Origin: Polyangiaceae bacterium
GTDB lineage: Bacteria; Myxococcota_A; Polyangia; Polyangiales; Polyangiaceae
Length of the DNA stretch: 32,000 nucleotides
Direction: 5' to 3'
NCBI GenBank assembly: GCA_043747665.1
Contig: JAYTOQ010000105.1
Location: forward strand, 15,227-47,226
Position 1 is the first letter of the stretch; every line of letters begins with the position of its first letter. The notes beneath the pieces are model-generated. The model did not search any database and was not told the origin of the DNA. It saw nothing but the letters and a program-made list of their open reading frames with translations. Made by a program: the position numbers and the translations under genes. Shown one piece after another: positions 17,357 to 21,228 of the stretch.

Positions 17357-17429
17357 GGGGCGCTAGCTCGATCTGGCCGAGCACCGGTCTTTTACCCCGA
17401 GGGATGAGGGTTCAACTCCTCGCGCCCCA
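17357..17429 (+). tRNA. tRNA-like, anticodon TTT (Lys), degenerate
   Basis: Acceptor GGGGCGC/GCGCCCC pairs 7/7 and the D stem is GCTC/GAGC. The loop is CTTTTAC, but the anticodon stem has only 3 bp. The T arm is one base short (GAGG-GTTCAACT-CCTC). Confidence 0.35.
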
Positions 17430-17432
17430 CAC

Positions 17433-17506
17433 GGGTCCGTAGCGCACCGGGCAAGCGCACTCGACTCTTGATCGAGGTGGTGAGGGCTCGATTCCCTCCG
17501 GACCTA
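17433..17506 (+). tRNA. tRNA-like, anticodon CTT (Lys), non-canonical T-loop
   Basis: All four stems pair: GGGTCCG/CGGACCT, GCGC/GCGC, CTCGA/TCGAG and GAGGG/CCCTC. The anticodon loop is CTCTTGA. The T-loop is CTCGATT (C at position 54). Confidence 0.65.
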
Positions 17507-17544
17507 CCGGGCGACGTGTGCCTCGTGCACGCCGCTCTGCTCAC

Positions 17545-17616
17545 TCCGGGATCGTCTAGCTGGCAGGACGCTGGTCTCTGAAACCAGAAACGCAGGTTCG
17601 ACTCCTGCGCCCGGAA
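17545..17616 (+). tRNA. tRNA-Gln-like, anticodon CTG
   Basis: Acceptor TCCGGGA/GCCCGGA has U1-A72 and one A-G mismatch. The other stems are GTCT/GGAC, CTGGT/ACCAG and GCAGG/CCTGC. The anticodon loop is CTCTGAA and the T-loop TTCGACT is canonical. Confidence 0.7.
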
Positions 17617-17710
17617 CCGAGCCACGCGTGGGGCAACCCGCACGCGGCCATGCTCTCTGAAAACTTGGCGCCACTAGGCTCGTCCCGCTCTTTGCGGGCG
17701 AGCCATTCAT

Positions 17711-17783
17711 TCCAGCGAAGCCGAATGGTCAGGCAACCGGCTGTTAACCGGTCATCTCGGGGGTTCGATTCCTCCCACTCGAG
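17711..17783 (+). tRNA. tRNA-like, anticodon GTT (Asn), degenerate
   Basis: The anticodon arm ACCGG-CTGTTAA-CCGGT is perfect. The T arm is GGGGG-TTCGATT-CCTCC. The acceptor pairs only 5/7 and the D stem has 3 bp. Confidence 0.35.
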
Positions 17784-17873
17784 CTCTCGCGTGCACACGC
17801 AGGCGAGGACTGTTCTGGATCTCGGAGCGCCCACGCTCGAGGCCCCCGCACGCGCTGACCCGCGTGCGATCGT

Positions 17874-17944
17874 GCCCATGCTTCTCGCTGGTCGAGCACC
17901 CGCTTCGTACGCGGTGTGATCCGGTTCGACTCCGAGCGTGGACT
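17874..17944 (+). tRNA. tRNA-like, anticodon CGT (Thr), degenerate
   Basis: The loop is TTCGTAC, the D arm is TCTC-GCTGGTC-GAGC, and the T-loop is TTCGACT. Each of the four stems has one mismatch. A partial copy of its 5' end (GCCCACGCT) lies at 17829. Confidence 0.35.
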
Positions 17945-17952
17945 CTCGACTT

Positions 17953-18023
17953 GCCCCCGTCATCGAAAGGTCAGGATCTCCGTCTTTCAATCGGAGCACG
18001 TCGGTCGAATCCGATCGGGGGTG
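17953..18023 (+). tRNA. tRNA-Glu-like, anticodon TTC, 6-nt T-loop
   Basis: The acceptor is GCCCCCG/CGGGGGT. The anticodon arm is TCCGT-CTTTCAA-TCGGA. The T stem GTCGG/CCGAT closes only TCGAAT. Confidence 0.5.
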
Positions 18024-18038
18024 CAATGTTCACGTATC

Positions 18039-18111
18039 GGGCTGTGAGCTAGTCGCAGGGTAGCGTCCGTCTGAAGCACGGAAGAGCGTGGTGCGAGCCC
18101 ACGACAGCCCA
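18039..18111 (+). tRNA. tRNA-like, anticodon GAA (Phe), T-loop TGCGAGC
   Basis: All stems are perfect: GGGCTGT/ACAGCCC, GCTA/TAGC, TCCGT/ACGGA and CGTGG/CCACG. The anticodon loop is CTGAAGC. Position 55 is G and position 8 is G. Confidence 0.65.
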
Positions 18112-18790: not shown

Positions 18791-18855
18791 CTTTTCGCTA
18801 ACCCCCATTTACTCACTTGAAAGGGTGAGATGAAAGTGAGGAAGACAAGGTAATC

Positions 18856-19389
18856 ATGCAAACCCTGATGCTGACCCCGTGGATGGCTCCGCACAAGATC
18901 ATCTCCTGGCAACGCGCCGTCGTGCTCGCATACCTCGGCAAGGTCCAGGTCATCGAGAGCTGGGACGAGGATCTCCACGCTCCCACTTTCTCGATGAAGG
19001 CCCCCGCCGTCGTGCGGCTCACGAAGGGGTCGGTATCGACGAAGCAGTCGGTTCGCTTCTCGCGGGTCAACGTCTTCACGCGTGACAGGTTCCGTTGCCA
19101 GTACTGCGGTGAGAGGAAGACTCTCAAACAGCTGAACTACGACCACGTGATTCCGCGCGTACGTGGAGGCCAGACGGTCTGGGAGAACATCGTCTCCTCC
19201 TGCTACGCCTGCAACGATCGTAAGGGGAGTCGCACGCCCGAGGAGGCCGGAATGAAGCTGCTCAAGAAGCCGCTGAAGCCGGAGACCCTTCCCGTCGTGC
19301 CGCCGATCCGCCTCGACGAGGGTGACGTGCCCGAGCTCTGGCAACCGTACTGCGGTGACCTGGCCCGGCGGATGTTCCTCTCGGCGTGA
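18856..19389 (+). CDS. HNH endonuclease (small McrA-like His-Me finger nuclease)
   Basis: CQYCGERKTLKQLNYDHVIPRVRGGQTVWENIVSSCYACNDRKGSRTPEEAGM is the classic HNH/CxxC...CxxC core. The N-terminal ISWQRAVVLAYLGKVQV segment is typical of this roughly 180-aa family. It is the only intact protein gene within the tRNA-like array, and its GC is lower than the flanks. Confidence 0.8.
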   Translation: MQTLMLTPWMAPHKIISWQRAVVLAYLGKVQVIESWDEDLHAPTFSMKAPAVVRLTKGSVSTKQSVRFSRVNVFTRDRFRCQYCGERKTLKQLNYDHVIPRVRGGQTVWENIVSSCYACNDRKGSRTPEEAGMKLLKKPLKPETLPVVPPIRLDEGDVPELWQPYCGDLARRMFLSA

Positions 19390-19487
19390 GTGCCTGCGCG
19401 AACATCCGAAACGATGTGCGCTCCCGCGTCCTGGCTCATGACGAGAAAAACTGAGCCTCTTATTCCTTTCGATCTCCCCTCTCGGTC

Positions 19488-19565
19488 CTCCCCTAATCCT
19501 GGTGGATTCCAGGCAGCGGTCTACGAAGCCACTTGCTCCAGGTTCGATTTCTGGCTGGGGGACCA
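19488..19565 (+). tRNA. tRNA-like / possible Y-RNA-like mimic, anticodon ACG (Arg), encoded CCA
   Basis: The loop is CTACGAA, as in tRNA-Arg(ACG). The T arm is CCAGG-TTCGATT-TCTGG, and the D hairpin is CCTGG-TGGATT-CCAGG. The standard acceptor pairs only 5/7. An alternative 8-bp closing helix GGTCCTCC (19484-19491) / GGGGGACC (19557-19564) would sequester the CCA. Confidence 0.35.
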
Positions 19566-19592
19566 GCGGCCTTCATTCTGCATTTCTAGTTC

Positions 19593-19669
19593 GTTTCTGT
19601 CGTCTAGACGGCCAAGGACACTCGCCTCTCAAGTGGGTAACACGGGTTCGAATCCCGTCAGAAACACCA
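19593..19669 (+). tRNA. tRNA-Glu, anticodon CTC, encoded CCA
   Basis: Acceptor GTTTCTG/CAGAAAC is perfect. The D arm GTCT-AGACGGCCA-AGGAC is Glu-type. The anticodon arm is CTCGC-CTCTCAA-GTGGG, the T arm is ACGGG-TTCGAAT-CCCGT, and the 3' end is ACCA. Confidence 0.85.
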
Positions 19670-19700
19670 ACCATCACTCTCACCCAGAAAGGAGAACGCC

Positions 19701-21019
19701 ATGTCGAACAAACATCCCCACAACGAAGCCGGAGGCTCGGCCTACGCGTTCTCGCCGGCGCATGCGCTCGCGCAGTACGCCGTCACCGGGACCTTTCACG
19801 GCAGCTTCTACGGAAACCGACAAGGAGCAGCTCGATCGCGTGGCCGCGCTGGCCGGCGCGGTGACACCCGAGCTCGTCGCCAAGACCGCCATCTATTGCC
19901 GCGAGAGCGCCCGGATGAAGAACATGCCGGCATTCCTCGTCGCTCAGCTCGCGGCAACTTCGTCCAGACCGGTCGCTCCGGTGTGACCGGCCGCAAGTCG
20001 TTCGGCTCGGCCCCCAAGCGCGCGCTCGCTCGTGGTTCGCGAGCCGCTCGCCCGACGTCATCTTCCGCCAGTCGATCGGTCAGTCTCCGTCCATGTCGGA
20101 CGTCATCAAGATGGTTCGCCCTCCCCCGCGGAACGACAAGGGCGAAGCCGATGCCGTCCGTGAGGCCCTCTACGGCTACCTCATCGGCAAGAACATCGAC
20201 GACGACAAGCTCCGCACGCTACCCCGCGCCTTCGAGGCGTGGAAGCGCGGTAAGGGTGACCTGCCCGACGTGCCCTTCGAGATGCTCACCCCGCTACCGT
20301 TGAGCGCGACGCACTGGAAGGAGCTCGCCAGGCGCGTCGACAAGGGCGTGCCTCGCGAGATCGTCGACGCGATCAAGCAGGCGCTCGAGTACTCGGTGTC
20401 CAATGTGCCCGAGCTCGGAGGACGTGTCGTCCTCTGCCCCGACGTGTCGGGCTCGATGCAGTCACCGGTCACCGGCCATCGCGGCACGGCGACCACCAAG
20501 GTGCGCTGCGTCGATGTCGCGGCGCTCGTCACCGCGGCCATCCTGCGGCGCAATCCCGGCGCGACCGTCGTTCCGTTCTCGGACGACGTCGTGCACCTGG
20601 ATTGCCCGCTCGATCCGCTCGATTCGCTCGATTCAATCGTCAAGAATGCCGACCGCCTCCCATCGCTCCCGAGCGGTGGGACGTCGTGCTCGGCTCCTCT
20701 CCGCTGGCCCAACGCTCGCGGTGAGGCTCCCGATGTCGTCGTGTTCGTCTCGGACAACCAGTCCTGGTCGGATTTCCGGCTTTCGGCTCGTCATGATCCG
20801 AACGGCACGCGCGGCACAGTGATGGCGGAGGAATGGCAACGCCTGCGGGGCAGGAACCCGAAGGCGAAGCTGATCCTCATCGACGTGCAGCCGTCGAGCA
20901 CCACGCAAGTCCTCGGTGGTGCTGTCCGAGACGACGTCCTCAACGTGGGCGGCTTCTCGGACGCAGTCTTCGAAGTCATCTCCGCGTTCACCCGCGGCGA
21001 CCTCGCCGGCGACAGCTGA
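19701..21019 (+). pseudogene. rsr: Ro60/Rsr ortholog (TROVE + vWA), N-terminal half disrupted by frameshifts and deletions
   Basis: An AAAGGAG RBS precedes the ATG at 19701. Matches by recall to D. radiodurans Rsr are HNEAGGSAYAFS...GSFYG, VAKTAIYCRESARMKNMPAFLVAQLA, FGSAPKRALAR|WF, MSDVIKMVRPPP, the vWA MIDAS motifs LCPDVSGSM / SGGTSC / FVSDNQSW, and the C-terminal VLNVGGFSDAVFEVISAFTRGD. These segments lie in three different frames, with shifts near 19810, 19965 and 20031. The total is about 440 codons against about 530 expected. Only 20093-21019 is one long open frame. Confidence 0.75.
20608..20634 (+). repeat. 3 x 9-bp tandem repeat (gctcgatYc) within the vWA region
   Basis: Reads gctcgatcc gctcgattc gctcgattc, encoding LDPLDSLDS. 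Confidence 0.85.
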
Positions 21020-21076
21020 CTGCGCGCGATTGAATCGATAGCGCTCGATTGAGCCATCGGGCCAAAGAACGCGCGA

Positions 21077-21117
21077 GGGTCCCCGCCGTTCACCGGAAAA
21101 GGTGTCGTCGGGGACCC
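21077..21117 (+). ncRNA. Long hairpin GGGTCCCCG...CGGGGACCC with inner CACC-ggaaaa-GGTG
   Basis: Read directly: a 9-bp outer helix with acceptor-stem-like sequence, followed by A. It lies 58 nt after the rsr-like stop. Confidence 0.3.
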
Positions 21118-21151
21118 ACGTGCCCATTCGCTGGCGCCAAGCTCAGTATGC

Positions 21152-21228
21152 GCGGAGCTTGTTCATCTGGTGATGACGCCTGTCTCACAAACAGGATCAG
21201 GAGCGCTCGATCCTCTCGCTCCACACCA
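21152..21228 (+). tRNA. tRNA-like, anticodon CAC (Val), T-loop CTCGATC, encoded CCA
   Basis: Acceptor GCGGAGC/GCTCCAC pairs 6/7. The anticodon arm CCTGT-CTCACAA-ACAGG is perfect. The T arm GAGCG-CTCGATC-CTCTC pairs 4/5. The 3' end is ACCA. Confidence 0.55.

What the first reader, a model, noticed from the sequence alone, without database searches (positions are those of the whole stretch)
17357..21228. Non-redundant array of at least 14 tRNA-like genes interleaved with an HNH endonuclease and a decayed Ro60/Rsr gene
Hand-folding gives cloverleaf-compatible elements starting at 17357, 17433, 17545, 17711, 17874, 17953, 18039, 18233, 18488, 18575 and 18714. The HNH CDS follows (18856-19389), then elements at 19488 and 19593, then the rsr-like gene (19701-21019), then one more element at 21152.

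All elements are on the + strand. All 14 anticodon loops keep T33 and a purine at 37. The 14 anticodons are all different: TTT, CTT, CTG, GTT, CGT, TTC, GAA, GTG, TCC, GCA, CAG, ACG, CTC, CAC (12 amino acids). Three members with different anticodons share the identical T stem GAGGG/CCCTC (17433, 18488, 18575), and 17357 nearly does. That suggests duplication in place followed by anticodon diversification.

Five members encode CCA. The region is visibly AT-richer than its flanks, and the only intact protein gene inside it is an HNH nuclease. This looks like a phage or mobile-element tRNA island, not a housekeeping tRNA operon. Ro60 is an RNA quality-control protein normally partnered by tRNA-mimicking Y RNAs. 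Its presence here, together with an SPFH gene, suggests a translation-rescue / RNA-damage-response cassette, for example replacement tRNAs against anticodon nucleases. I do not recognise this combination as a described system.
Basis: partly seen in the sequence, partly recalled or inferred. Interest (0 to 1): 0.85.

Follow-up and report, generated by a model that had tools for sequence, protein, structure and literature searches.

The report
Decaying accessory tRNA array with HNH
This is a real but eroding spare set of tRNA genes in the chromosome of a Labilithrix-like soil myxobacterium: it is the shrunken remnant of a roughly 30-gene tRNA array of a known kind, in which only the embedded HNH nuclease gene and a few tRNAs are still kept intact.

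Summary
All 14 elements are homologues of tRNA genes, with the stated coordinates and anticodons. Ten pass ARAGORN or Rfam at default thresholds. The other four map to well-formed tRNAs in relatives.

The HNH ORF is intact. The rsr (Ro60) gene is a pseudogene, and so is the SPFH gene.

The locus is not a new system. It is a degraded copy of a long, co-oriented tRNA array (an "L-array" or "tRNA array unit") with an embedded HNH gene. That HNH family also sits beside the Anabaena trn operon and inside mycobacterial arrays.

Related Labilithrix-like genomes carry 30-34 tRNAs at the same site (ComM to M18 peptidase), plus HNH and intact Ro60; some also carry YrlA-like RNAs and SPFH. This lineage has lost at least 12 tRNA genes, and it has no YrlA.

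The remaining elements diverge between strains at about the neutral rate (about 5%), with strain-specific stem-breaking lesions. HNH has no amino-acid changes. Gln-CTG, Phe-GAA and Glu-CTC are nearly invariant.

The array is vertically inherited, not a recent insertion. The array-Rsr/YrlA link in Polyangia and phages appears undescribed in the papers searched. Interest is moderate.

The parts
17261..17313 (+). Conserved motif about 45-95 nt upstream of the first tRNA (CAGTACGACTTTGTCCGCGAGGTTCAATnATGTTTCTCAAnCTnGGTATCTGA). It is a candidate promoter/operator of the array.
   Evidence: It is the only strongly conserved block in otherwise unalignable upstream DNA of 11 Labilithrix-like loci. It occurs once in the window (0 expected by chance), and its exact 14-nt core occurs once in each of the five loci that hold it. 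Function is inferred. The sigma-70 scan found no + strand promoter.
17357..17430 (+). tRNA-Lys(TTT), degraded
   Evidence: ARAGORN. Rfam 40.8 bits, against 57-62 bits in L002/L011/L012. 17/21 cloverleaf pairs; the anticodon stem has 3/5 pairs and the T arm 3/5 pairs with a 1-nt deletion.
17433..17508 (+). tRNA-Lys(CTT), intact-looking
   Evidence: ARAGORN plus Rfam 58 bits. 21/21 pairs. The copies in strains L001/L002/L006 are degraded (18-20/21).
17545..17618 (+). tRNA-Gln(CTG), intact and conserved
   Evidence: ARAGORN plus Rfam 55.1 bits. 20/21 pairs. 0, 0 and 1 differences to the three other haplotypes.
17711..17784 (+). tRNA-Asn(GTT) with two window-specific acceptor-stem mismatches
   Evidence: Rfam 41.8 bits, against 49-60 bits in the other strains and species. 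The acceptor stem has 5/7 pairs here and 7/7 in all 12 comparators.
17874..17945 (+). tRNA-Thr(CGT), degraded
   Evidence: Not detected at default thresholds. Found with ARAGORN -ps90. Orthologous to Thr(CGT) of L001/L002/L006/L011/L012, which ARAGORN detects. 17/21 pairs, against 18-20.
17953..18024 (+). tRNA-Glu(TTC), T arm broken by a 1-nt deletion
   Evidence: Rfam 39.8 bits, against 44-62 bits elsewhere. The T stem has 2/5 pairs and the total is 16/21, against 19-21.
18039..18113 (+). tRNA-Phe(GAA), fully paired and conserved, with an unusual T loop (TGCGAGC, G at position 55)
   Evidence: ARAGORN only; Rfam is below threshold. 21/21 pairs. 1, 0 and 0 differences between haplotypes. The T loop is conserved in L020/L011.
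18233..18302 (+). tRNA-His(GTG), degraded
   Evidence: Not detected at default thresholds. 88.5% identical to L012 tRNA-His. Orthologues have 21/21 pairs. The window copy has acceptor mismatches and a 1-nt deletion at the D arm / anticodon stem junction.
18315..18347 (+). Remnant: 5' half of tRNA-Arg(CCT)
   Evidence: 33 nt, 91% identical to positions 1-33 of L020 tRNA-Arg(CCT), E 7e-8. It is the only tRNA remnant found in the masked spacers.
18488..18559 (+). tRNA-Gly(TCC); T loop TGCGACT; D loop without GG
   Evidence: ARAGORN plus Rfam 40.5 bits. 19/21 pairs. Orthologues score 46-58 bits.
18575..18646 (+). tRNA-Cys(GCA) with a short, Sec-like D arm; U73; CCA encoded
   Evidence: ARAGORN. 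Rfam tRNA-Sec 35.8 bits, below the gathering score of 47. 21/21 pairs. Three pairs show compensatory changes across 9 species.
18714..18790 (+). Short (class-I shaped) tRNA with Leu anticodon CAG; A73; CCA encoded
   Evidence: ARAGORN plus Rfam 51.7 bits. 18/21 pairs. L006 has a 5-nt duplication in the anticodon loop.
18856..19389 (+). HNH endonuclease gene, intact and under purifying selection
   Evidence: PF14279 58.6 bits and PF01844 54 bits. The CxxC...DH...N...CxxC motif is present. The protein is 100% identical in all haplotypes, with 3-8 synonymous changes. dN/dS is 0.13-0.25 between species. Homologous to the array-linked HNH of Anabaena (38%), Mycobacterium (40%) and phages Mx1 and Rctr197k (41%).
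19488..19565 (+). tRNA-Arg(ACG), degraded; CCA encoded
   Evidence: Not detected at default thresholds. Found with ARAGORN -ps90. ARAGORN detects the orthologue in L002, L011 and L012. 17/21 pairs, against 19-20.
19593..19669 (+). tRNA-Glu(CTC), intact and invariant; CCA encoded
   Evidence: ARAGORN plus Rfam 56.8 bits. 21/21 pairs. 0 differences in all haplotypes. Six pairs show compensatory changes across 10 species.
19701..21019 (+). rsr (Ro60) pseudogene
   Evidence: The vWA_Ro60 domain is found only in the 19919-21019 frame. Homology to intact Ro60 is spread over three frames. There are two deletions of about 64 and about 162 bp relative to L012. The other haplotypes carry different frameshifts and deletions.
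21152..21228 (+). tRNA-Val(CAC), degraded; CCA encoded
   Evidence: Not detected at default thresholds. Found with ARAGORN -ps90. 84.5% identical to the L012 tRNA-Val gene (anticodon TAC) and 77% to L011 tRNA-Val(CAC). 18/21 pairs, against 19-21. This segment is absent from L001/L002/L006.
21290..21854 (+). SPFH/Band_7 pseudogene fragment (C-terminal half only, in two frames)
   Evidence: tblastn with the L020 SPFH protein matches residues 200-411 only, at 40-82% identity, split over two frames. The window lacks the equivalent of L011 11247-12277, which holds YrlA and the 5' half of SPFH.

Best explanation
The locus is the eroding remnant of a long accessory tRNA array (an L-array or tRNA array unit). 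It lies in the chromosome of a Labilithrix-like myxobacterium (Polyangia).

Ancestral form, still seen in related genomes at the same site: 30-34 co-oriented tRNA genes covering nearly all amino acids, behind one conserved upstream motif. An HNH endonuclease gene follows the tRNA-Leu genes. An rsr (Ro60) gene is present in most of these loci, and tRNA-mimic YrlA RNAs and an SPFH gene in some of them.

Inferred function of the intact module, by analogy with the Anabaena trn operon and with phage tRNAs. The array is transcribed as an operon and processed to supernumerary tRNAs. These back up translation when the housekeeping tRNA pool is damaged or depleted by ribosome-targeting stress, tRNA-cleaving toxins or phage conflicts. 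Rsr/YrlA handles misfolded or damaged RNAs.

In the window's lineage selection on this function has lapsed. At least 12 tRNA genes, YrlA and half of SPFH were deleted. rsr is frameshifted. Most surviving tRNA genes drift at the neutral rate and accumulate stem-breaking changes that differ from strain to strain.

What is still maintained: the HNH gene, and a subset of tRNAs (Gln-CTG, Phe-GAA and Glu-CTC clearly; Lys-CTT and Cys-GCA in this haplotype).

Shown versus inferred. Identity, orthology, decay and HNH conservation are shown. Expression, charging, the physiological role and the substrate of the HNH are inferred.
For: Real tRNA genes.

Orthologous large arrays at the same ComM...M18 site: 33, 32, 34 and so on tRNAs in the same order, HNH after tRNA-Leu, and Ro60 intact in most of these loci.

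Structure is under selection in relatives: 19-21 of 21 pairs are kept, and compensatory changes occur in 6 pairs (Glu-CTC) and 3 pairs (Cys-GCA).

Decay here:
- Pair counts are 16-18/21 in 8 of 14 elements.
- Lesions are strain-specific.
- tRNA-like elements diverge 5.1% between haplotypes. Spacers diverge 5.3-7.0%, and HNH dS is 0.049-0.066.
- rsr and SPFH are pseudogenes, with different lesions in each haplotype.
- No YrlA is found with Rfam or with a clade-specific covariance model, which scores 80-93 bits on untrained relatives.
- At least 12 genes are deleted relative to L020, and one half-tRNA remnant survives.

Maintained parts: HNH has dN = 0 within the clade and dN/dS 0.13-0.25 between species. 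Gln-CTG, Phe-GAA and Glu-CTC show 0-1 changes in 226 nt, binomial P 4e-6 and 2e-7.

Membership of the known kind: the HNH is homologous to the HNH beside the Anabaena trn operon, with 24 tRNAs adjacent. It is also homologous to the HNH inside a 28-tRNA mycobacterial plasmid array. In IMG/VR, 40 of 80 loci with an HNH homologue hold arrays of at least 5 tRNAs.

Functional analogy from the literature: PMC8421152 (induction of the trn operon, all8564 and rtcB under translational stress; 23 of 26 tRNAs charged), PMC12803027, PMC10264068.
Against: There is no expression, processing or charging data for any of these RNAs.

The rest of the genome was not available. The claim that the array is redundant with a housekeeping tRNA set rests on its decay and deletion polymorphism, not on a tRNA census.

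The array diverges about twice as fast as the neighbouring rsr pseudogene in substitutions (4.8-5.4% against 2.0-2.4%). Something beyond simple neutrality could contribute, such as transcription-associated mutation, gene conversion or a later death of rsr.

Pair counts of 17-18/21 do not prove loss of function.

The upstream motif is still conserved. This may mean the operon is still transcribed and partly used.
Confidence: 0.78

Rival explanations
1. The whole cassette is a currently working translation-rescue or anti-anticodon-nuclease system. All 14 tRNA-like genes would be functional variants, deliberately divergent so as to escape tRNA-targeting toxins.
For: All 14 keep T33 and a purine at 37, and all have distinct anticodons. 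The upstream motif is conserved. Five or six elements are fully or almost fully paired. Phage tRNAs are known to evade tRNA nucleases through sequence changes (PMC10264068, PMC11555353).
Against: The changes specific to this clade are stem-breaking substitutions and T-arm or D-arm indels, not anticodon-loop variants. They also differ between near-identical strains. Divergence equals that of spacers and of synonymous sites. Rsr, SPFH and YrlA are dead or gone. At least 12 array genes have been deleted.
Confidence: 0.1
2. The array is the ordinary, essential tRNA operon of this lineage, simply conserved among Labilithrix-like bacteria.
For: It has the same chromosomal position and gene order in all 11 Labilithrix-like loci whose held sequence reaches the flanks, with 30-34 tRNAs covering nearly all amino acids. 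HNH codon usage is host-like.
Against: An essential set could not lose Ile, Pro, Ser, Met, Trp, Ala and Tyr genes and accumulate broken stems, as it has here. There is deletion polymorphism between strains. Other Myxococcota keep the HNH with only 0-4 tRNAs nearby. The HNH, Ro60 and array architecture matches horizontally spread arrays and phages. Many members have non-canonical features.
Confidence: 0.03
3. It is a recently integrated prophage or mobile-element tRNA island.
For: GC is lower than in the flanks. HNH and Ro60 have their nearest annotated relatives in phages: Mx1 HNH at 41% and Mx1 TROVE protein at 46% to the relatives' Ro60. Half of the viral-contig HNH homologues lie in tRNA arrays.
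Against: There is no megablast similarity to 50,697 phage records. Pfam found no integrase or other phage-typical domain among the 20 main ORFs scanned. The insertion site is the same in species with HNH dS of about 0.6-0.8. HNH GC3 is 0.85, like host genes. A phage origin is plausible, but it would be ancient.
Confidence: 0.05
4. The high divergence of the array reflects HNH-driven gene conversion or recombination with other array copies, not relaxed selection.
For: The array diverges faster in substitutions than the adjacent rsr pseudogene. Endonucleases in tRNA regions can drive preferential inheritance and repertoire change (T4 SegB and cluster M phages, as cited in PMC8421152 and PMC5966550).
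Against: No second array copy or donor is known. The changes are scattered single substitutions and 1-nt indels, not mosaic tracts. They lower the pairing. The HNH gene itself, in the middle of the region, shows only synonymous drift.
Confidence: 0.05

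Closest known systems
L-array (trn operon) of Anabaena/Nostoc sp. PCC 7120 plasmid delta, with the HNH gene all8564 (Santamaria-Gomez et al. 2021, PMC8421152)
   Same: A long, co-oriented, non-periodic run of tRNA genes with diverse anticodons. It includes short tRNAs with Leu anticodons. A homologous HNH gene lies directly beside it (38% identity, E 2e-28). Some members are pseudogenes. It is accessory to the housekeeping set.
   Different: The Anabaena array is plasmid-borne, and its HNH is upstream of the array, not embedded. 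It has no Ro60, YrlA or SPFH beside it; the co-regulated RNA-repair partner there is rtcB. Regulation is through TrcR-type direct repeats. The conserved motif here is unrelated in sequence. The window copy is far more degraded, and its expression is untested.
tRNA array units of Mycobacterium plasmids, phages and chromosomes (Morgado & Vicente 2018, PMC5966550; Yano et al. 2026, PMC12803027)
   Same: 26-32 tRNAs with a single embedded, conserved HNH gene. The M. intracellulare plasmid HNH is 40% identical to the window's and is flanked by 28 tRNAs. The arrays are redundant with the chromosomal tRNAs. An anti-defence role has been proposed.
   Different: These arrays sit on plasmids or phages and spread horizontally. 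The array here is chromosomal and syntenic across a genus-level clade. No Rsr is reported in them. The T-loop G55 variants seen in the Polyangia arrays are absent from the mycobacterial array examined (0/26).
Myxococcus phage Mx1 TROVE-tRNA-HNH region (OR576727; genome announcement PMC10720576)
   Same: The same three kinds of component lie within 7 kb. The TROVE/Ro60 protein is 46% identical to the Ro60 of the Labilithrix-like arrays. The HNH is 41% identical to the window's and is flanked by short tRNA-Leu genes. Scattered tRNAs are present.
   Different: There are only four tRNAs in the 12.4-kb stretch examined, interspersed with phage genes. It is a lytic-phage genome context. No nucleotide similarity was found.
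Rsr-YrlA (bacterial Ro60 / Y RNA) module, e.g. the Salmonella rsr-yrlBA-rtcBA operon (Chen et al. 2014, PMC4201824; PMC7790460)
   Same: Relatives of this locus encode intact TROVE+vWA Ro60 with one or two YrlA-like RNAs within 4 kb. These RNAs have the T arm, acceptor-like stem and D arm, plus a closing stem.
   Different: In the window itself rsr is a pseudogene and YrlA is absent. In the relatives the module lies inside a tRNA array and not next to rtcBA. Their YrlA-like RNAs score below Rfam's gathering threshold (50-62 bits against 69).

Membership tests
tRNA array unit / L-array | At least 20 tRNA genes in one cluster (the criterion of Tran et al. 2016, PMC4758250) | tested here: not met
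   The window has 14 elements plus one half remnant; 10 are detectable at default thresholds. The criterion is met by the orthologous loci: 33 (L011), 32 (L012), 34 (L021), 32 (L024). The window copy is therefore a remnant of such a unit.
tRNA array unit / L-array | Density of at least 2 tRNA genes per kb, all in one orientation and close enough for co-transcription | tested here: met
   14 elements lie in 3.87 kb (3.6 per kb). 13 of them lie in 2.3 kb even with the HNH gene included. All are on the + strand.
tRNA array unit / L-array | Non-periodic composition with many different isoacceptors (L-type, not accretion type) | tested here: met
   There are 14 different anticodons and no periodic order. 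The repeat search finds only shared T-arm or 3'-half similarity.
tRNA array unit / L-array | Conserved HNH endonuclease gene next to or inside the array | tested here: met
   PF14279/PF01844. Homologous to the HNH genes beside or inside the Anabaena, Mycobacterium, Mx1 and Rctr197k arrays.
tRNA array unit / L-array | Supernumerary: redundant with a dispersed housekeeping tRNA set | not testable with these tools
   Only a 32-kb window and loci of 20.5 kb or less were available. Redundancy is inferred from gene loss, decay and strain polymorphism.
tRNA array unit / L-array | Patchy phylogenetic distribution / spread by horizontal transfer | tested here: inconclusive
   The module occurs at unrelated sites in Pendulispora, Sorangium and other Polyangiales, and in viral contigs. 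Within the Labilithrix-like clade it is syntenic and vertically inherited.
Bacterial tRNA (Rfam RF00005) | Score at or above the gathering threshold (29 bits) | tested here: inconclusive
   8 of 14 pass (39.8-58 bits). Phe-GAA and Cys-GCA are found by ARAGORN only. Four pass neither detector at default thresholds but are orthologous to passing tRNAs.
Rsr/Ro60-Y RNA module | Intact TROVE + vWA Ro60 ORF | tested here: not met
   Only the vWA domain is recognised. Homology is split over three frames, with about 64-bp and about 162-bp deletions. Ro60 is intact in L012, L013, L020-L022, L024, L025 and L034.
Rsr/Ro60-Y RNA module | YrlA-like RNA within about 4 kb of rsr | tested here: not met
   No Rfam YrlA or Y RNA hit at E<=10 in 16000-22500. 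The custom covariance model R1 reaches at most 12 bits in 15500-23500 with filters off. The syntenic segment is deleted. Present in relatives at 50-131 bits.
HNH endonuclease (Pfam HNH_5 / HNH) | HNH beta-beta-alpha-metal motif with zinc-binding CxxC pairs; score above the Pfam threshold | tested here: met
   58.6 bits against a cut-off of 27.5. The residues FRCQYCG...DHVIPR...N...CYACN are present. PDB sequence and fold matches are to the HNH of Cas9/IscB and to the Gme HNH nicking endonuclease 4H9D.
Homing endonuclease (selfish, mobile) | Evidence of mobility or presence/absence polymorphism of the nuclease gene, with decay after fixation | tested here: not met
   The gene sits at the same position in all Labilithrix-like arrays. 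dN/dS is 0.13-0.25, and there are no amino-acid changes within the clade although its surroundings decay. It persists where arrays are lost, and as a stand-alone gene in Nitrospira. Cleavage activity was not testable.
Prophage / integrative element | Integrase, att repeats, phage structural or replication genes | tested here: not met
   Pfam found none among the 20 main ORFs scanned in the 32-kb window. No phage nucleotide match. The site is conserved across species. att repeats were not searched for.

The most novel reading that the evidence does not exclude
The intact relatives of this locus may define an undescribed, regulated 'shadow' tRNA system of Polyangia that also occurs in some large phages.

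Its parts would be a roughly 30-member array behind one conserved operator, physically fused with the Ro60/YrlA RNA-surveillance module and a domesticated HNH nuclease.

A quarter of its tRNAs carry a conserved G55 T loop, and some lack the G18G19 D-loop pair. Its tRNA-Leu(CAG/CAA) lack the long variable arm. Its tRNA-Cys has a Sec-like D arm. These tRNAs would then be deliberately distinct from the housekeeping pool, either to escape tRNA-targeting toxins or to serve non-ribosomal uses.

YrlA genes lie inside the arrays, and YrlA has a T arm / acceptor / D arm order. This also leaves open that YrlA arose from a tRNA-tRNA junction of such an array.

On this reading the window shows which parts the host still needs once the system is abandoned: HNH, Gln-CTG, Phe-GAA and Glu-CTC.
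Probability: 0.2. Interest if true: 0.65.

Novelty: new member of a known kind. Interest (0 to 1): 0.4.

Why it matters
Long accessory tRNA arrays are widespread, but their function has been probed experimentally in few organisms, chiefly Anabaena.

This locus and its relatives give a natural series, from intact 30-34-gene arrays to a half-deleted and drifting one, within closely related genomes and co-occurring strains. The series shows that the array is dispensable, whereas its HNH gene and a few tRNAs are not.

The relatives also place the bacterial Ro60/YrlA surveillance module inside tRNA arrays, in Polyangia and in phages. No paper found in the library searches made that link. It suggests concrete experiments in cultured relatives such as Pendulispora and Sorangium, on what Ro60, array tRNAs and the array-linked HNH do together.

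The window's own copy is mostly a genomic fossil.

Tried and rejected
- Megablast of 15000-23000 against 50,697 phage records gave no match.
- Rfam permissive scan for Y RNA or YrlA in the window found none. The only non-tRNA hits were noise, or tRNA-shaped false families such as Plastid-ycf2 on the opposite strand and mascRNA.
- A clade-specific YrlA covariance model found nothing in the window or in its sister haplotypes. Weak hits (<40 bits) in other arrays are tRNA-tRNA junctions and were not counted.
- The sigma-70 promoter and terminator scan found nothing useful on the + strand.
- The repeat search found no att-like flanking repeats, only tRNA-internal similarity and a 9-bp repeat inside the rsr pseudogene.
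- Relaxed ARAGORN alone was rejected as evidence because it also calls false tRNAs inside coding sequences and on the minus strand.
- The AlphaFold model of the HNH was mediocre (pLDDT 66). Foldseek recognised only the HNH core, and the confident N-terminal domain (residues 1-55) had no informative match.
- NCBIfam and PHROGs gave only generic HNH and RNA-binding labels. PADLOC was not run.
- Neighbours of the Nitrospira HNH homologue gave no functional hint.
- Literature searches found no paper linking tRNA arrays with Rsr, none describing arrays in Myxococcota, and none on short-arm tRNA-Leu in arrays.
- I could not obtain any housekeeping tRNA of these organisms. It is therefore unresolved whether G55 is array-specific.

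Full report
OBSERVATION

ARAGORN tRNAs and Rfam RF00005 at gathering score (39.8-58 bits). All are on the + strand between 17357 and 19669, and there are none elsewhere in the 32 kb. Cys-GCA additionally hits tRNA-Sec below threshold.

The other four (17874 Thr-CGT, 18233 His-GTG, 19488 Arg-ACG, 21152 Val-CAC) appear only with relaxed ARAGORN thresholds. Those thresholds also yield false calls. Each of the 14 nevertheless aligns to a tRNA gene in related arrays.

- T33 and a purine at 37 in all loops.
- 14 different anticodons covering 12 amino acids.
- Five encoded CCA ends.
- The shared GAGGG/CCCTC T stem.

The HNH ORF (18856-19389) is intact. The Ro60-like region is broken. GC drops to 0.57-0.62. 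The sequence is identical, over the region they cover, in two other assemblies.

CONTEXT AND ORGANISM

The window is a 68% GC chromosome segment. It encodes a sigma-54 activator with an FHA domain, a PilY1-like protein, RecA, ComM, M18 aminopeptidase, a FIST protein and a Ser/Thr kinase. The closest genome in GTDB is a Labilithrix sp. MAG (HNH 92% and M18 90% identical). Pfam found no integrase or other phage-typical domain among the 20 main ORFs scanned, and there is no nucleotide match to phage records.

RELATIVES

Exact-protein look-ups and a genome scan recovered the same locus in three diverged haplotypes, L001/L004, L002 and L006, which are 94.5-96.7% identical to the window. They also recovered many related species.

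In Labilithrix-like genomes the site between ComM and AHSA1/M18 holds 30-34 co-oriented tRNAs in a conserved order:
- Lys-TTT, Lys-CTT, Gln-CTG, Asn, Thr ... Gly-TCC, Cys, Ile, Val, Pro, Leu
- then HNH
- then Pro/Ser/Arg/Met/Glu-CTC
- then Ro60 (intact in most of these loci)
- then Thr/Gly/Met/Gln/Val
- then a YrlA-like RNA and/or SPFH (in L011, L020 and L026)
.

Pendulispora, Sorangium and other Polyangiales carry the HNH, tRNA array and Ro60 combination at other sites. In these relatives the tRNAs keep 19-21 of 21 pairs and show compensatory changes. They are therefore structured RNAs under selection.

DECAY IN THE WINDOW'S LINEAGE

Compared with the nearest intact array (L020), at least 12 tRNA genes are missing, and a 33-nt half of Arg-CCT survives. 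Eight of the 14 elements have only 16-18 pairs, or indels in the T or D arms.

The lesions differ between haplotypes:
- Asn acceptor mismatches occur only in the window.
- A 5-nt duplication in the Leu-CAG anticodon loop occurs only in L006.
- Cys-GCA is broken in L001/L002 but perfect here.

Divergence to the two most divergent haplotypes, L001 and L002, is 5.1% in tRNA-like elements and 5.3-7.0% in spacers. HNH dS is 0.049-0.066, and flanking genes diverge 0.6-1.5%.

rsr is split over three frames with two deletions, and it is broken differently in each haplotype. SPFH is a C-terminal fragment. YrlA is absent by Rfam and by a clade-specific covariance model that scores 80-93 bits on untrained relatives.

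WHAT IS STILL MAINTAINED

The HNH protein is identical in all haplotypes (3-8 synonymous changes). It evolves at dN/dS 0.13-0.25 between species.

Gln-CTG, Phe-GAA and Glu-CTC are nearly invariant (P about 1e-6 against the other elements).

A 53-nt motif upstream of the first tRNA is conserved across species.

RELATION TO KNOWN SYSTEMS

Long tRNA arrays with a linked HNH gene are described in the literature (PMC8421152, PMC5966550, PMC4758250, PMC12803027). The window's HNH is homologous to:
- the HNH beside the Anabaena trn operon (38%, with 24 tRNAs adjacent);
- the HNH inside a 28-tRNA M. intracellulare plasmid array (40%);
- the HNH genes flanked by tRNA-Leu in phages Mx1 and Rctr197k.

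Half of 80 viral contigs with a homologue carry at least 5 co-oriented tRNAs, and 7 also carry Ro60. The Ro60 of the arrays is 46% identical to the Mx1 TROVE protein.

The library searches I ran returned no paper tying tRNA arrays to Rsr/YrlA, and none describing arrays in Myxococcota. Chen et al. discarded YrlA hits that overlapped tandem tRNAs and found few in delta-proteobacteria.

MECHANISM

Shown:
- The elements derive from tRNA genes.
- They belong to a decaying copy of a conserved array, HNH and Rsr module.
- HNH and three tRNAs are under purifying selection.

Inferred by analogy: the intact module supplies back-up tRNAs under translational stress or tRNA-targeted attack. In Anabaena the array, its HNH and rtcB are co-induced, and 23 of 26 tRNAs are charged. 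Phage tRNAs are known to evade anticodon nucleases. Rsr/YrlA is inferred to clear damaged RNAs.

The HNH is usually read as a homing endonuclease. Here it is retained under purifying selection while the array decays. It also occurs alone in other Myxococcota and in Nitrospira. This argues for a host-useful role that does not need the array. Its substrate is unknown.

RIVALS

- A fully working cassette: rejected, because the lesions are disruptive and strain-specific, and the partner genes are dead.
- A housekeeping operon: rejected, because essential isoacceptors have been lost.
- A recent mobile insertion: rejected, because of synteny and ameliorated codon usage.
- Gene conversion: no donor and no mosaic tracts. 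However, the array's substitution rate exceeds that of the rsr pseudogene, which remains unexplained.

VERDICT

This is a new, degraded, myxobacterial member of a known kind. The most interesting points concern its intact relatives: the array-Rsr/YrlA linkage, the G55 T loops and the conserved HNH.

LIMITS

There are no expression data and no whole-genome tRNA census. The cloverleaf pair counts come from a simple fixed-layout script.

Noticed in passing
window 18039-18113, 18233-18302, 18488-18559; loci L011-L013, L020-L049, L091: About a quarter of the well-folded tRNAs in Polyangia arrays have a T loop starting TGC. That puts G at position 55 in place of the near-universal U55. Counts are 66/241 in Labilithrix-like loci and 29/184 in other Polyangia. 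The trait sits in fixed isoacceptors (Met, Gly, Ala, Val-GAC, His, Gln-TTG, Leu-CAA, Phe) and is conserved between species. It is essentially absent from the Mycobacterium, Anabaena and phage arrays (1/477). Gly-TCC also lacks GG in its D loop. From memory only: non-proteinogenic Staphylococcus tRNA-Gly has UGC in place of T-psi-C. Whether housekeeping tRNAs of these bacteria share the trait could not be checked.
   Followed up: partly
window 18714-18790; L011 6577-6785; L014, L016, L018, L019: tRNAs with Leu anticodons (CAG, CAA, TAA, TAG, GAG) but no long variable arm (73-80 nt; A73 in the window copy) occur in every array type examined: Polyangia, Anabaena, Mycobacterium, Mx1 and Rctr197k. 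The Polyangia arrays also keep one long-arm Leu-GAG. The HNH gene follows the tRNA-Leu genes in the Polyangia arrays, in Mx1 and in Rctr197k.
   Followed up: partly
window 18575-18646: tRNA-Cys(GCA) has a 5-6 bp D stem with a 4-5 nt loop (Sec-like), a short variable region and U73. It is conserved, with compensatory changes, in 9 species. It hits Rfam tRNA-Sec below threshold.
   Followed up: partly
window 17261-17313 (and 17330-17339): A strongly conserved motif lies upstream of the first tRNA in all Labilithrix-like arrays. It contains repeated TCAA elements. It is a candidate promoter/operator. It is unrelated in sequence to the TrcR repeats of Anabaena.
   Followed up: partly
L011 11318-11437; L013 6123-6537; L029, L030, L031, L033, L044, L049, L091: YrlA-like RNAs, often as tandem pairs, lie inside Polyangia tRNA arrays next to Ro60. 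They score 40-62 bits in Rfam, below the gathering score of 69, so standard annotation would miss them. Their T arm / acceptor-like stem / D arm order equals that of a tRNA-tRNA junction.
   Followed up: partly
L052-L090 (Nitrospira), L039-L042, L048, L050: Homologues of the array HNH (43-46% identity) are present in dozens of Nitrospira genomes with no co-oriented tRNA gene within 8 kb. In N. moscoviensis the gene sits among ordinary metabolic genes. Several Myxococcota keep the HNH with 0-2 tRNAs nearby. This fits poorly with a purely selfish homing endonuclease.
   Followed up: partly
window 15700-17250 and 21967-22851: The DNA between ComM and the array has ORFs with no Pfam match and low GC3. 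The AHSA1-domain gene downstream of the array shows many indels between strains. Both stretches are 3-4% divergent between strains, against 0.6-1.5% in the flanks. The whole 15.7-22.9 kb stretch, apart from HNH, is therefore a variable island.
   Followed up: partly
window 11421-12142: A short-chain dehydrogenase gene is split into two ORFs (139 aa and 101 aa, both matching adh_short). In other strains it is split differently (78 + 96 aa). It is probably another polymorphic pseudogene.
   Followed up: no
window 20598-20641: Three to four tandem copies of a 9-bp unit (CGCTCGATY) lie inside the rsr pseudogene.
   Followed up: no
window 18650-18712 and 18795-18835: Two similar AT-rich spacers flank tRNA-Leu(CAG): CCCATTT..GAGAAATGAAAG and CCCATTTACTCACTTGAAAGGGTGAGATGAAAG. 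The second forms a small hairpin just upstream of the HNH start codon. Its function is unknown.
   Followed up: no
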